Below are positions 31,879-58,527 of a stretch of 64,000 nt of DNA, piece by piece. The stretch comes from Minisyncoccota bacterium (lineage in GTDB: Bacteria; Patescibacteriota; Minisyncoccia; Phycocordibacterales; UBA918). The position numbers and the translations under genes are program-made. Below the pieces are notes generated by a model. It saw nothing but the letters and a program-made list of their open reading frames with translations, ran no database searches and had not been told where the DNA came from. Position 1 is the first letter of the stretch. Each line of letters starts with the position of its first letter. Where the stretch lies: positions 257,217 through 321,216 of the forward strand of contig JAJOLD010000001.1 in the NCBI GenBank assembly GCA_021129515.1. Direction: 5' to 3'.

Positions 31879-31883
31879 CTCTG

Positions 31884-31957
31884 AGCCACCTCTCAGATTC
31901 GAACTGAGGACCTACGGTTTACAAAACCGTTGCTCTAACCAACTGAGCTAAGGTGGC
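31884..31957 (-). tRNA. tRNA-Thr (anticodon UGU); CCA is not encoded
   Basis: Manual fold: acceptor GCCACCT/AGGTGGC, D-arm GCTC-AGTTGGTTA-GAGC, anticodon arm ACGGT-TTTGTAA-ACCGT, variable loop AGGTC, T-arm CTCAG-TTCGAAT-CTGAG, discriminator U. Confidence 0.88.
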
Positions 31958-32006
31958 GTATGAAATTGTGACTACTTACTTATTATCAAGTGGTCAAAGC
32001 GATTTT

Positions 32007-32019
32007 GCAACGGTTTTGT
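32007..32019 (+). other. plus-strand copy of the tRNA-Thr D-stem/anticodon-stem 13-mer GCAACGGTTTTGT
   Basis: The tRNA itself is on the minus strand. A further GCAACGGTT copy lies at 32127-32135. Confidence 0.7.
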
Positions 32020-32055
32020 AACAAAACTTTAAAAGAATATCCCATATTCTTTTAA

Positions 32056-32080
32056 CTCTAACCAACTGAGCTAAGCTGGC
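32056..32080 (-). other. tRNA 5'-half fragment (GCCAGCTTAGCTCAGTTGGTTAGAG: acceptor 5' strand plus D-arm) with no cognate 3' half
   Basis: It matches positions 1-25 of the neighbouring tRNA-Thr except at 1-2 bases. It is followed by unrelated hairpin sequence. Confidence 0.7.
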
Positions 32081-41241: not shown

Positions 41242-41708
41242 TAATTATCTGATTACACCCAATAATACCATGCACACGCAGCAAAATAGGCGAGAACCAG
41301 TTTGAAAAGACTCGGAGTACAAAGATTTCAAAAATTCGAGCAGAAAAACATATAAAATTTCGTCTCTTACTGAGACCGTTTAGGTTGACGCCGCTCACGC
41401 GGCTGGCAACCTCTTGCGCCAGTACGTAGGTACTGGCTCACCATATCGAGATACAGTGATAAGTTCCGAGGGAACTTTGCAAGACCTTTAGAGATATTTT
41501 GACGAAGGAGAAATATCCTAAAGGTGTACCGCTTCCGTAGGAAGAGAAGATTTTAGAAGTTTTATCTCTTACAGATACTGTGCAGGTCGTATGATAATGT
41601 TCGTTCCTCACACTATCGACGACCTCTTGCGAACGTGTCTGTACACGTTTTCACCGAATTTTGGGAATCGACTACCCGAAACAGTTCTTCACTTAAATTT
41701 CACTGTAT

Positions 41709-46857: not shown

Positions 46858-47298
46858 CTAAAACTTATTGATGCGGCGCACATGCCGTTCATCACCAGGA
46901 AACTGGATAGTGAGCCACACGCGGACGACTTCTTTTGCTTCCTCGGGAGTCACAAAGCGCGCACCAAGCGAAAGAACGTTTGCATTGTTGTGTTCACGCG
47001 AGAGTGTGATTATTTCTGGTTGTCCACCGTAGTACACAGTTGCCCGCACACCAGGTACTCGATTTGCAACCATTGCCTCACCCTGTCCTGAGCCACCAAG
47101 CACAAGAGCTCGGTCTTCTTCTGGATTTGCGGCAACTTTTGTTGCAGCAATACTGACAAAATCGGGATAATCATCAACGGCGTTAAACGAATGTGCACCA
47201 CAGTCCTCTGCCACAAGTCCAAGCTCAGTCACCACAAAATCCTTAAGTATATTCTTAAGTTCAAATCCTGCGTGGTCGGTGGCGAAATAAATCTTCAT
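46858..47298 (-). CDS. rpiB: ribose-5-phosphate isomerase B
   Basis: MKIYFATDHAGFELK ... CGAHSF ... matches RpiB/LacAB. Confidence 0.93.
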   Translation of the reverse strand: MKIYFATDHAGFELKNILKDFVVTELGLVAEDCGAHSFNAVDDYPDFVSIAATKVAANPEEDRALVLGGSGQGEAMVANRVPGVRATVYYGGQPEIITLSREHNNANVLSLGARFVTPEEAKEVVRVWLTIQFPGDERHVRRINKF

Positions 47299-47552
47299 AT
47301 ATTAGAAGGTAGTGCGTAGTTAGTAGTACGTAGAACCTACTTGTTAATCATAACATTTTTGTCACCAATGCTGTCATGATGAATTTAGTTCAACATCTTA
47401 AGAGATTCTGAAACACACCACAAGGGCATTACCATTATTTCTGCTGCGCTCTAAATTCAGAATAGTCGTTCCACTCCTTTCTTCATTCATAATTCCCTCC
47501 GGTCATAAGAAAAATGGGTCAGTCCAGAATGACCGATGCTTTGATTGCCCAT

Positions 47553-56717: not shown

Positions 56718-57701
56718 TTATTCCGATTCATTTTCAGAGCTAATATGCTTTGTGAGGGCATCTGAGAGAGTTTTTATACCCTCCCCCGTGTGTGCTGAAA
56801 CGACAAATACCCGTGCTGCGTGCGCGGCAAACGTGTCTATGAGTTGCTGCACAACTGTTTCATCAGTATTGATATCTGTCTTAGTGAGCACAATCCACTC
56901 TGGTTTTTTTGCAAGACTCTTGTCGTAGGCAACAAGTTCTTCACGTACTGCGGTGTATACCGCAACTGGATCTTGATTTTCGAGCGACACACAATGCAGT
57001 ACCATTTTGGTGCGAGTCACGTGCCGCAAAAATTTATGGCCCAATCCTTTTCCATCTGATGCCCCTTCGATGAGCCCTGGGATATCCGCAAGCAATACAC
57101 CATAGAGGTCACCAAGATGTGGTTCAAGTGTCGTAAATGGATATGCCCCGACTGCAGCCTTGGCATTGGTCAGTGTATTGAGCAAGGTTGATTTACCAGC
57201 ATTCGGAAGCCCAATAAGCCCCACATCAACCAAGAGTGCTAACTCAATCATAAACGCACCAGACTCCCCCTGCTTACCAGGTGTTGCTTTTTCTGGAGCT
57301 CGATTAGTTGATGACTTAAAGTACTCATTTCCAAGTCCACCATGCCCCCCTAAGAGAATTTTTTCAGTGGCACCCACCGTATCAAGAGTATACGTTCTAT
57401 CCCGAGCAATATCACGCACCGTGGCACCGACAGGCACATCAATATAGCAGTCAGCACCATCATGCCCGTGTTGACTTTGGTTCCTACCAGCCTCGCCATC
57501 TTCTGCAGCAAATGCTTTGCTTCCAGTATATTTACTCAAAATACTGAGGTCATGTACGGCACGAATATAGACATCGCCACCCCTGCCGCCATTTCCGCCT
57601 GCAGGACCACCCATGGGCTTAAATTTCTCACGACGCCACCTGACGACACCGTCGCCTCCATTTCCTGCTTTTGCGGTTATTTCTAATTCGTCTACAAACA
57701 T
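56718..57701 (-). CDS. obg: GTPase Obg/CgtA
   Basis: N-terminal Gly-rich Obg fold (GGDGGDG-like: AGNGGDGVVRWRREKFKPMGGPAGGNGGRGGDVYI) followed by a GTPase domain (GLIGLPNAGKSTLL). Confidence 0.95.
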   Translation of the reverse strand: MFVDELEITAKAGNGGDGVVRWRREKFKPMGGPAGGNGGRGGDVYIRAVHDLSILSKYTGSKAFAAEDGEAGRNQSQHGHDGADCYIDVPVGATVRDIARDRTYTLDTVGATEKILLGGHGGLGNEYFKSSTNRAPEKATPGKQGESGAFMIELALLVDVGLIGLPNAGKSTLLNTLTNAKAAVGAYPFTTLEPHLGDLYGVLLADIPGLIEGASDGKGLGHKFLRHVTRTKMVLHCVSLENQDPVAVYTAVREELVAYDKSLAKKPEWIVLTKTDINTDETVVQQLIDTFAAHAARVFVVSAHTGEGIKTLSDALTKHISSENESE

Positions 57702-57756
57702 TAACTGAAAAAAGGAGCGTAAGCGACTATTCTGAAATTACGTCCCGATTTGTTCT

Positions 57757-58030
57757 GCCCTTGGGCAAATCGCTGGACGAGCAAATGTAGTATGTCACTA
57801 TACGCACTCCATTGTTTATATATTGATAATTCTTTTGACCTTTTATTATACCTCTTCCCTAGGAAAAATTGCTGGACAAGGAACTGTGGCATGTCGCCTG
57901 TTCCCATTACTTATAAATGACTTATTTACAATTCGTCTTCCCTTACAGGGACTGTTCAGGTTGTCGCTGCTTACGCAGCTGGCAACCTCTTGCGAAATGA
58001 CAGTAAGTCATTTCTCACCCAGAGCGAATT
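57757..58030. repeat. three degenerate tandem ~90-100-nt repeat units inside a 490-nt noncoding region
   Basis: Each unit opens with CT(T/G)CCCTT..GG and contains AAAT(C/T)GCTGGAC(G/A)AG(C/G)AA(A/C)TGT(A/G)G(T/C)ATGTC(A/G)C. The third unit carries AGGTTGTCGCTGCTTACGCAGCTGGCAACCTCTTGCG, ~80% identical to 41385-41425. Confidence 0.55.
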
Positions 58031-58194
58031 CCTGGAACACATAGTCATAGTCCAAGCTACCCTACTTGTGATTACATACCAATAAATACTCGGCTTGTTC
58101 GTTACACTTGATTTTGTATACCCCCTTCCACCTCTCTCGCACCACATACCACCATACATCTTCCAACAATACAAACACTTCTGCGCTCAACCAC

Positions 58195-58527
58195 CTATAC
58201 CAATTTGTTCCCAATGGCACTCACAACACTGACAATCAATGAGCCAATGAGTGCCGCGAGGAATCCTTGTACCGCAAAGCCATCAACAAAAGAAGCGACA
58301 AACAAGAAGAGCGCGGCATTGATAACAAACATAAAGAGTCCAAGTGTCAGAATGGTAATTGGCAGGGTAAGTACCACTAACACTGGACGCACAATGAGAT
58401 TAAGCAATCCTAATATAATTGCTGCAATAATTGCAATATAAAGGTTTGCAATGGCAATACCAGGCACCACATATGCAGCAATGAGTAATCCGAGTGCGGT
58501 TATCAATACTCGTACAAGAATAGTCAT
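58195..58527 (-). CDS. DUF360 / phage-holin-family-IV-like small membrane protein
   Basis: Four TM helices with VVPGI...VRPVL..LTLPITILTLGLF, typical of COG1950/holin_4. Confidence 0.65.
   Translation of the reverse strand: MTILVRVLITALGLLIAAYVVPGIAIANLYIAIIAAIILGLLNLIVRPVLVVLTLPITILTLGLFMFVINAALFLFVASFVDGFAVQGFLAALIGSLIVSVVSAIGNKLV

What the first reader, a model, noticed from the sequence alone, without database searches (positions are those of the whole stretch)
57702..58194. 490-nt noncoding region between obg and the DUF360 gene with three degenerate tandem repeat units and a hairpin motif shared with the 41.4 kb intergenic region
The region contains no credible ORF. It has three ~90-100-nt units beginning CT(T/G)CCCTT..GG and sharing AAAT(C/T)GCTGGAC(G/A)AG...TGT.G.ATGTC.C. 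The third unit contains AGGTTGTCGCTGCTTACGCAGCTGGCAACCTCTTGCG. That sequence has a nested hairpin (AGGTTG...CAACCT around GCTGC-TTAC-GCAGC) and is ~80% identical to TTTAGGTTGACGCCGCTCACGCGGCTGGCAACCTCTTGCG at 41385-41425, upstream of the dehydrogenase and kinase genes. Possible roles: a small RNA gene family, a riboregulatory leader, or iteron-like protein-binding repeats. The repeats are not CRISPR-like, since the units are degenerate and there are no conserved spacers.
Basis: seen in the sequence. Interest (0 to 1): 0.5.

Follow-up and report, generated by a model that had tools for sequence, protein, structure and literature searches.

The report
Conserved structured repeat modules in Patescibacteria
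The spacer upstream of obg is not junk: it is a patchwork of two structured, non-coding repeat modules that I could not find described anywhere and that recur in many ultra-small (Patescibacteria) bacteria, although what they do is still unknown.

Summary
Window 57702-58194 is non-coding and lies between a DUF360/holin-like gene and obg, both on the minus strand.

It contains one full copy ("A", 57933-58024, minus sense) of a ~90-nt three-hairpin element, "E": GGUGAGAA-H3-UCGCAAGA-H2-UGAACAG-H1(GUA loop). The window holds three more copies at 41.4-41.7 kb, in alternating orientation.

E matches no Rfam 15 family. It was absent from 9 non-Patescibacteria loci and from IMG/VR.

Across 89 distinct copies, 96% of helix positions pair and 23 of 26 pairs show compensatory changes. 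G:U outnumbers A:C 62 to 11, so one strand is under structural selection.

Unit 1 is intact, unit 2 is decayed, and unit 3 is decayed and carries E in its loop.

E has no fixed promoter, terminator or partner gene, and it sits in P1 loops in either orientation. My best reading is a transcribed, structured mosaic repeat of the REP/BIME/BOX type. Function is inferred, not shown.

The parts
57933..58024 (-). Element E, copy A: three-hairpin module, 5' GGGUGAGAA-H3-UUCGCAAGA-H2-UGAACAG-H1-AGACGA 3'.
   Evidence: R1 98.9 bits. R3, built only from other genomes, 85.6 bits, E 2.4e-21. Minimum free energy z -3.2 (minus strand) and -4.5 (plus strand).
57991..58017 (-). H3 of copy A. UG/CA base, one A.G mismatch, stem GAAAUGAC/GUCAUUUC, loop UUACU. 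The base of the helix is conserved in sequence and the upper stem is variable.
   Evidence: Pairs 12-18 of helix 1 show 7 to 48 double changes across 89 copies.
57958..57988 (-). H2 of copy A: AGGUUG..CAACCU enclosing GCUGC-GUAA-GCAGC.
57939..57951 (-). H1 of copy A: UCCC-UGUAA-GGGA, with the conserved GUA(A) loop.
   Evidence: helix 4: 5 of 6 pairs with double changes.
58025..58037 (-). 5' arm of the host palindrome of unit 3: UUCCAG-GAAUUCG. AAUUCG (58025-58030) pairs with CGAAUU (57930-57935).
   Evidence: Read. Same frame as L072, GUCCAG-GAAUUUG-CCCAAGG-[E]-AGAA-CAAAUUC-GGAC.
57912..57938 (-). 3' arm and decayed M tail of unit 3: AGA-CGAAUUG-UAAAUAAGUCAUUUAUA.
   Evidence: Alignment of units with E removed, z 3.2 against unit 2.
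57813..57911 (-). Unit 2: decayed P1-M copy. It has the hairpin GGAAC..GGCGACAUGCC..GUUCC, then GUCCAGCAAUUUUUCCUAGGGAAGAGG, then a degenerate M. It contains a TATAAT at 57845-57850.
   Evidence: 43-nt repeat at 77%. Unit 1 against unit 2: 64/92 identical, z 4.8. Not found by R2 at E<0.01.
57699..57781 (-). Unit 1: intact P1-M module, GUCCAG-CGAUUUG-CCCAAGGGCAGAA-CAAAUCG-GGAC-GUAAUUUCAGAAUAGUCGCUUACGCUCCUUUUUUCAGUUA. It ends at the obg start codon.
   Evidence: R2 96.7 bits. Homologues in L141, L148, L153, L129, L075, L112, L092 and others.
57701..57907 (-). 68-aa ORF called as a gene in the ENA assembly. Judged spurious.
   Evidence: No Pfam hit on record for the gene called here in the ENA assembly. 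Other P1-M copies carry stops and frameshifts in this frame.
58038..58194 (-). Unassigned spacer 3' of the DUF360 gene. G/U-rich on the minus strand, C-rich and G-poor on the plus strand.
   Evidence: No terminator or promoter match. No Rfam match.
41357..41447 (-). Element E, copy B.
   Evidence: R3 72.4 bits.
41450..41550 (+). Element E, copy D. It is inverted relative to B and C, and its H2 stem has an entirely different sequence (CCUUUAG/CUAAAGG).
   Evidence: R1 37.7 bits. R3 67.6 bits.
41559..41660 (-). Element E, copy C.
   Evidence: R3 61.2 bits.

Best explanation
The obg-upstream spacer is a mosaic of two non-coding repeat modules that I could not find in Rfam 15 or in the searched literature and that were found here only in Patescibacteria (Paceibacteria-type). 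This window comes from such a genome.

Module E is a ~90-nt strand-specific three-hairpin fold with nearly invariant junction nucleotides. Module P1-M is a palindromic stem followed by the motif GGGACAUAAAUUCAGAAUAGUCGCU-CGCUCCUUUCUUCA. Here three P1-M units stand in tandem: unit 1 is intact and abuts obg, unit 2 is decayed, and unit 3 is decayed and carries E in its loop.

Shown:
- Family membership.
- The conserved secondary structure.
- The strand bias of wobble pairs.
- Multi-copy, patchy and non-syntenic distribution.
- Nesting of E in P1 loops in both orientations.
- Absence of a fixed promoter, terminator or partner gene.

Inferred. E is co-transcribed as part of intergenic or 3'-UTR RNA; here that would be on the secA-DUF360-obg strand. 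It acts as a folded RNA module of the REP/BIME/BOX type, that is, a barrier to exonucleases or a binding or processing site for a conserved protein or RNase. It has multiplied by tandem duplication and by insertion into hairpin loops, rather than serving as a gene-specific regulator of obg.
For: Family and structure:
- No Rfam family matches.
- 92 model hits, of which 89 are distinct. 96.4% of cells are paired, against 76% in shuffles and 31-56% when partners are slid. There are 460 double-change cells against 115.
- RNAalifold finds the same three hairpins, and 23 of 26 pairs show compensatory changes.
- G:U+U:G is 62 and A:C+C:A is 11.
- The model built without any window sequence recovers exactly four window copies.

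Repeat behaviour:
- Tandem arrays with a period of 90-108: L030 has four near-identical units, and L028, L094, L110 and L116 also have arrays.
- The window copies B(-), D(+) and C(-) alternate in orientation, 2 and 8 nt apart.
- E lies inside P1-M loops in sense orientation (L072, L076, window unit 3) and antisense orientation (L137/L153, L092, L095).
- An "empty" apex GCCCAAGGGC is seen in window unit 1 and L141.

Context:
- Downstream genes are diverse housekeeping genes with no transposase among them.
- In spacers between co-directional genes, the sense strand matches the direction of transcription in 43 cases against 15.
- In L009 and L040, E lies between an upstream terminator and a second terminator.
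Against: - No expression data, so transcription and any RNA-level role are inferred.
- About a third of copies face away from the next gene (using a crude ORF caller). That is awkward for any purely RNA-level role.
- Copies within one genome are divergent (A, B, C and D are roughly 50-85% alike), and copy number looks low: 3-4 strict-pattern stretches (4-5 copies) on 0.7-1.0 Mb contigs. REPs typically occur in high copy number (>100 per genome; PMC2817692).
- The junction nucleotides are conserved over a much greater evolutionary depth than is usual for selfish repeats. This hints at a specific partner or activity that this explanation does not name.
- Flanks do not generally pair to close the element.
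Confidence: 0.45

Rival explanations
1. E is a dedicated functional RNA. It could be a protein- or ligand-binding cis-regulatory leader (a global signal controlling growth and translation genes such as obg, nusA, tig, rpsA and tRNAs), or a small self-cleaving ribozyme that processes polycistronic transcripts. On this view its spread is secondary.
For: - Junction nucleotides (GUGAGAA, UCGCAAGA, UGAACAG, GUA loop) are nearly invariant while the stems covary. That pattern is typical of riboswitches and ribozymes.
- G:U greatly outnumbers A:C.
- 80 of 122 copies are co-oriented with the downstream gene.
- Many neighbours are translation- or RNA-related genes and tRNAs.
- Head-to-tail arrays, in which H1 of one unit overlaps the GGUGAG of the next, would suit unit-length processing.
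Against: - There is no conserved expression platform, and the distance to the next gene runs from 4 to more than 600 nt.
- 42 of 122 copies face away from the next gene.
- E is inserted in either orientation in P1 loops.
- It is present upstream of obg in only 2 of about 40 genomes, and in opposite orientations.
- It matches no known riboswitch or ribozyme model.
Confidence: 0.25
2. E is a DNA-level mobile element: a non-autonomous derivative of a single-strand transposon (IS200/IS605-type "PATE", or REP/RAYT-like). Its hairpins would be recognised on one DNA strand, and any RNA structure would be incidental.
For: - Filled and empty sites differ without a target duplication. Compare CCCAAGG[E]AGAA in L072 with CCCAAGGGCAGAA in window unit 1.
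- The E 5' end abuts CCCAAGG (L072) or CCCTTGG (L095), which is the same position on either strand of a palindrome.
- E is nested in another repeat and in tRNA-derived hairpins.
- The strand-specific wobble bias would also fit single-stranded DNA.
- The orientation bias could reflect the direction of replication.
Against: - No transposase or reverse transcriptase appears among the 47 downstream neighbours scanned. The upstream neighbours listed were not scanned.
- There is no conserved target tetranucleotide before the 5' end.
- There are no terminal inverted repeats.
- Copies in one genome are old and divergent, with compensatory changes, rather than near-identical.
- E is absent from IMG/VR.
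Confidence: 0.2
3. The region is decaying junk or a pseudogene remnant, or a set of iteron-like protein-binding repeats, with no conserved structure.
For: Units 2 and 3 of the P1-M array are visibly decayed. No Rfam match was found.
Against: - E and P1-M are conserved in many distant genomes with compensatory changes.
- The ORF is not conserved.
- The wobble asymmetry argues against double-strand binding sites.
Confidence: 0.03

Closest known systems
REP elements and BIMEs (bacterial interspersed mosaic elements) of Enterobacteria and Pseudomonas
   Same: - Intergenic, multi-copy, structured repeats.
- Occur singly, in tandem and in alternating orientation (window copies B/D/C).
- Combined with other motifs into mosaics.
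- In E. coli they are transcribed within operons and stabilise upstream mRNA (my own knowledge; see also PMC2817692 and PMC3733652, found).
   Different: - REPs are single 20-40-nt palindromes with a GTAG or CGTC tag, occur in hundreds of copies and are linked to RAYT transposases.
- E is about 90 nt with three distinct hairpins and invariant junction sequence, and its copy number is low.
- E is conserved across a whole candidate-phylum-level clade, and no RAYT was seen.
BOX elements of Streptococcus pneumoniae (boxA-boxB(n)-boxC)
   Same: Modular build from different sub-elements, a variable number of tandem sub-units, predicted stable RNA folds, and location in intergenic regions near diverse genes (my own knowledge).
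   Different: There is no sequence relation and the module architecture differs. BOX elements are species-restricted.
Rickettsia palindromic elements (RPE) and Neisseria Correia elements
   Same: Small structured repeats that persist in reduced or host-dependent genomes, insert into varied hosts including RNA genes, and are co-transcribed (my own knowledge).
   Different: RPEs often insert in frame in coding genes, and Correia elements have terminal inverted repeats and target duplications. E is intergenic, has no terminal repeats and shows no duplication.
IS200/IS605-derived PATEs (palindrome-associated transposable elements)
   Same: Strand-specific hairpins, seamless filled and empty sites without target duplication, and orientation bias.
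   Different: PATEs need a fixed 4-5-nt target next to the left end and a TnpA partner, and their copies are near-identical. None of this was seen here.

Membership tests
Any Rfam 15 family (riboswitches, ribozymes, sRNAs, leaders) | Match to a curated covariance model. | tested here: not met
   The whole window at gathering score gives only tRNA-Thr. 57600-58300 at E up to 10 gives no match. Eleven related loci give only tRNAs and one group I intron outside the element.
REP / BIME | Single 20-40-nt imperfect palindrome with a GTAG or CGTC head. | tested here: not met
   E is about 90 nt with three hairpins. The bases before the 5' end are heterogeneous; GTAGA occurs only in the tRNA-derived contexts.
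REP / BIME | Many copies, clustered in alternating orientation and mixed with other motifs. | tested here: inconclusive
   Alternating B(-), D(+), C(-) copies and mosaics with P1-M are seen. Copy number appears low: 3-4 strict-pattern stretches (4-5 copies) on 0.7-1.0 Mb contigs.
REP / BIME | Associated RAYT (TnpA-REP) gene in the genome. | not testable with these tools
   Whole genomes of the carriers are not available here. No such gene appears among the 47 downstream neighbour proteins scanned.
MITE | Terminal inverted repeats and target-site duplication. | tested here: not met
   The 5' end is GUGAGAA and the 3' end is ..CUGUAAGnnn, which are not inverted copies of each other. The filled/empty comparison shows no duplication.
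Riboswitch / gene-specific cis-regulatory leader | Consistently in the 5' UTR, co-oriented with a coherent set of downstream genes, and followed by an expression platform. | tested here: not met
   80 copies face the same way as the downstream gene and 42 face the opposite way. Downstream genes are diverse. No T-run at a fixed distance. The copy upstream of obg in L168 is in the opposite orientation.
Stand-alone small-RNA gene | Own promoter at a fixed distance upstream and a terminator at the 3' end. | tested here: not met
   No positional peak of -10-like hexamers or T-runs in about 135 copies. No promoter or terminator match in 57600-58300. L009 and L040 do have a terminator after H1.
CRISPR or TIGR array | [quoted passage not shown] | tested here: not met
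   Units are 90-108 nt with no spacers. TIGR features were taken from PMC12045711. Neighbouring genes are housekeeping genes.
Group I intron | P3-P9 catalytic core, recognisable by RF00028, inside a host gene. | tested here: not met
   No RF00028 match in the region. A true intron in L136 scores 74.7 bits and lies outside E.
IS200/IS605 PATE | Fixed target tetra- or pentanucleotide 5' of the left end, sub-terminal hairpins, and near-identical copies. | tested here: not met
   The 6-mers preceding GUGA are diverse. Copies within the window are roughly 50-85% alike.
New family E (defined here) | GUGAGAA-H3-UCGCAAGA-H2-U(G/A)NAC(A/C)G-H1 with a GUA loop, scoring with model R3. | tested here: met
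   Copy A scores 85.6 bits with R3, which was built without any window sequence.
New family P1-M (defined here) | GUCCAG-stem..stem-GGAC followed by AUAAAUUCAGAAUAGUCGCU..CGCUCC/GUUU. | tested here: met
   Window 57699-57781 scores 96.7 bits with R2, but it was one of the six seed sequences. Independent hits occur in L129, L092, L133, L124, L030, L022 and others.

The most novel reading that the evidence does not exclude
E is a new class of small catalytic or protein-recruiting RNA that is also mobile. It would be a ~90-nt three-hairpin RNA confined to Patescibacteria that inserts site-specifically into hairpin apices, including P1-M palindromes and the foldback hairpins in tRNA leaders. It would either self-process from polycistronic transcripts or dock a conserved factor on growth-related transcripts in organisms that have very few protein regulators.
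Probability: 0.12. Interest if true: 0.85.

Novelty: new variant of a known kind. Interest (0 to 1): 0.55.

Why it matters
Patescibacteria (the candidate phyla radiation) are a large and mostly uncultured part of bacterial diversity. They have tiny genomes and few known regulators, so conserved non-coding structure in them is unexpected baggage and needs an explanation.

E has more than 90 covariation-supported copies, is in no RNA database and turned up in no paper in my searches. It is therefore a ready-made candidate for the structured-RNA catalogue.

Its nesting in a second conserved module and in tRNA-leader foldbacks gives a concrete handle on how small structured repeats arise and move in reduced genomes.

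Practically, it also explains two artefacts: a spurious 68-aa gene call, and assembly breaks at this locus.

Tried and rejected
- Rfam at gathering and permissive thresholds found nothing.
- Tandem Repeats Finder did not detect the array.
- The promoter and terminator scan of the region found nothing.
- Coding hypotheses. The plus-frame reading of units 1 and 2 looked codon-like but contains stops. The minus-strand 68-aa ORF and a possible small peptide on the M reverse strand are both broken by stops or 1-nt indels in other copies.
- TIGR and CRISPR arrays were rejected on unit size and the lack of spacers.
- Group I intron remnant. Module M resembles the intron R/S elements only superficially, and no model hit was found.
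- A general closing stem around E. Flank duplex energies equal those of mismatched controls (mean -10.8 against -10.5 kcal/mol, p 0.46). Only a subset of copies (L072, L077, L126, L009, L166) is closed.
- Alternative ACAG/CUGU pairing, and T-loop readings of UGAGA and UGUAA, are not supported. There is no covariation for the first, and the H1 closing pair covaries as a Watson-Crick pair.
- A phage origin is unlikely, with no hit in IMG/VR.
- Literature searches by topic and by sequence string found no description.
- Not used: structure prediction, fold search, and the protein homology searches of the large databases. No credible protein was at stake.

Full report
**Setting**

The window comes from a metagenome-assembled Patescibacteria genome. 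The Obg protein is found unchanged on ENA scaffold BRAZ22-1 scaffold_14 and on several Logan contigs. The closest species-representative Obg proteins are only 60-67% identical and belong to Paceibacteria, Parcubacteria, Nomurabacteria or Kaiserbacteria MAGs.

The finding lies between a DUF360/Phage_holin_4_2 gene (58195-58527) and obg (56718-57701). secA is upstream and gatB downstream, and all four are on the minus strand.

- It is 35/40 identical to 41385-41424.
- Units 1 and 2 share a 43-nt repeat at 77% identity and a spacing of 99 nt.
- Rfam has nothing here, even at E up to 10.

**Element E**

Aligning the 57.9-kb copy with two copies at 41.4 and 41.6 kb showed three hairpins joined by conserved linkers, with one stem changed at every position between copies. 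A model built from these three copies found a fourth copy at 41450-41550 on the opposite strand. Its middle stem has a completely different sequence but still pairs.

The same model found copies in three related genomes, at non-syntenic places. One of them is a head-to-tail array of four near-identical units in a Nomurabacteria MAG.

92 of these aligned to the model.

On that alignment, which contains no window sequence:

- 96.4% of helix cells pair, against 76% after shuffling and 31-56% when partners are slid.
- 23 of 27 pairs change on both sides.
- RNAalifold predicts the same three hairpins without help from the model, with 23 of 26 pairs showing compensatory changes.
- The pattern fixed only the linkers, so the covariation in H3, the inner part of H2 and H1 is independent of how the copies were found.
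- G:U plus U:G pairs number 62, against 11 A:C plus C:A. The fold is therefore selected on the strand that reads GGUGAGAA...; in the window that is the minus strand for copies A, B and C.

A third model, built only from the metagenome copies, recovers exactly four copies in the 64-kb window at 61-86 bits. It finds copies in 4 of 37 Patescibacteria obg loci and in none of 9 loci from other phyla. The pattern is absent from 2.9 million viral contigs.

**What the "three units" are**

Listing the flanks of all copies exposed a second recurrent module, P1-M. It is a palindromic stem, GUCCAG-stem...stem-GGAC, followed by AUAAAUUCAGAAUAGUCGCU-CGCUCCUUUCUUCA.

- Window 57699-57781 is an intact copy that ends at the obg start codon. 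A model of this module finds about 25 further copies in other genomes, and an M-only fragment at window 47449-47492.
- Unit 2 is a decayed copy: 70% identity to unit 1, z 4.8.
- Unit 3 resembles the others only after E is removed (z 3.2 and 1.8). It keeps a 6-bp remnant of the stem around E.
- In L072 and L076 the same frame encloses E, and the stem shows compensatory changes.

**Non-coding status**

The 68-aa ORF that spans units 1 and 2 was called as a gene in the ENA assembly. Other P1-M copies carry stops or frameshifts in that frame, and the loop and the M motif vary by single nucleotides. I judge the gene call spurious.

**How E behaves**

- It is almost always intergenic.
- With a crude ORF caller, the downstream gene is co-oriented in 80 of 122 cases. 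In spacers between co-directional genes, E matches the direction of transcription in 43 cases against 15.
- There is no -10 box or T-run at a fixed distance.
- The flanks do not generally pair.
- Downstream genes are varied housekeeping genes such as nusA, tig, rnhB, rpsA, fba, ssb, rplY, rplC and rnc. No transposase was seen among them.
- Tandem arrays have periods of 90-108 nt.
- E lies in P1 loops in sense orientation (L072, L076, window) and antisense orientation (L137/L153, L092, L095).
- In L072 and L095 the E 5' end abuts CCCAAGG and CCCTTGG respectively. That is the same position on either strand of the apex GCCCAAGGGC, which is seen empty in window unit 1. This looks like insertion, with no target duplication.
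- In L009 and L040, E lies in the syntenic Wzy_C-murB spacer between two terminators.
- In L168 a copy sits upstream of obg but in the opposite orientation to the window copy.

**Interpretation**

That E and P1-M are real, conserved, structured, non-coding families is well supported; I put this at about 0.9.

E is not a gene-specific leader of obg, not a classical small-RNA gene, not an iteron set, and not a CRISPR or TIGR array.

The reading that fits the most facts is a transcribed structured mosaic repeat of the REP/BIME/BOX type, spread by duplication and by insertion into hairpins. Its RNA-level effect would be stability, processing or protein docking, and this part is inferred. I give this reading 0.45.

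The deep conservation of the junction nucleotides is unusual for selfish repeats. It keeps open a dedicated RNA function or ribozyme (0.25) and a single-strand DNA transposon derivative (0.2).

**Comparison with known families**

E resembles REP/BIME and BOX elements in being mosaic, intergenic and structured. It fails their defining features of size, tag and copy number. It also lacks the terminal repeats and target duplication of MITEs, and the fixed target of IS200/IS605 derivatives.

I found no description in Rfam 15 or in the searchable literature.

Noticed in passing
window 41357-41660: Three E copies fill the divergent spacer between a 2-hydroxyacid dehydrogenase gene and a PfkB kinase gene. 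They are in strictly alternating orientation: B(-) and D(+) are head to head 2 nt apart, and D(+) and C(-) are tail to tail 8 nt apart. An extended -10-like TGGTATTAT for the dehydrogenase gene lies downstream of B (about 41266-41274, minus strand).
   Followed up: partly
window 32002-32080 (minus), upstream of tRNA-Thr 31883-31957: A pseudo 5' half of the tRNA (nt 1-24) is followed by an H3-like hairpin with a GGG loop, then tRNA nt ~32-37, then TACAAAACCGTTGC, the exact antisense of 14 nt of the tRNA's D-stem/anticodon-arm region. The same architecture stands before tRNA-Thr in L060 (twice, once with a full E) and before tRNA-Asn in L069, L128 and L136. In L069, L128 and L060 I verified that the antisense part tracks each tRNA's own sequence. 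Function and origin are unknown.
   Followed up: partly
window 47449-47492 (plus): An M-only fragment of the P1-M module (R2 33 bits) lies in the spacer between genes ending at 47298 and 47703. One Logan contig ends 49 nt from it.
   Followed up: no
window 57749-57771; loci L003-L006 and L174-L176: Logan contigs approach this locus from both sides: four on the obg side (from four sequencing runs) and three on the DUF360 side (from three of those runs). All of them stop inside the unit 1 palindrome. This suggests the module is repeated elsewhere in the genome, or is variable between strains.
   Followed up: no
L136 702-939 (minus): A tRNA-Asn gene is interrupted by a group I intron in the anticodon loop (Rfam RF00028, 74.7 bits). 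This fits the 35/36 insertions reported for Patescibacteria (PMC13011429). ARAGORN missed the tRNA. The E-containing pseudo-tRNA leader lies about 110 nt upstream.
   Followed up: partly
L030 1922-2315: Four near-identical head-to-tail E units with a period of about 94-98 nt. The 3' arm of H1 (CACC UGUAA GGUG) doubles as the GGUGAGAA start of the next unit.
   Followed up: partly
window 58038-58194: The 157 nt after the DUF360 stop codon are strongly C-rich and G-poor on the plus strand, and G/U-rich on the gene strand. No terminator was predicted and the stretch is unassigned.
   Followed up: no
L028 3611-3874 (plus): A small lysine/alanine-rich ORF (MPAKKKATRKTPAKRK...), histone-like, lies between murB and secA. 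Two E copies lie just downstream on the opposite strand, ahead of a bidirectional terminator.
   Followed up: no
many loci (e.g. L056, L078, L135, L147, L149, L160): A further recurrent linker, ..GAGUACUUAG..AGAAU..GAGCG(U/A)AGC, joins successive E units in some arrays. Its 3' part equals the first half of reverse-strand M, which suggests that E also inserts within M.
   Followed up: no
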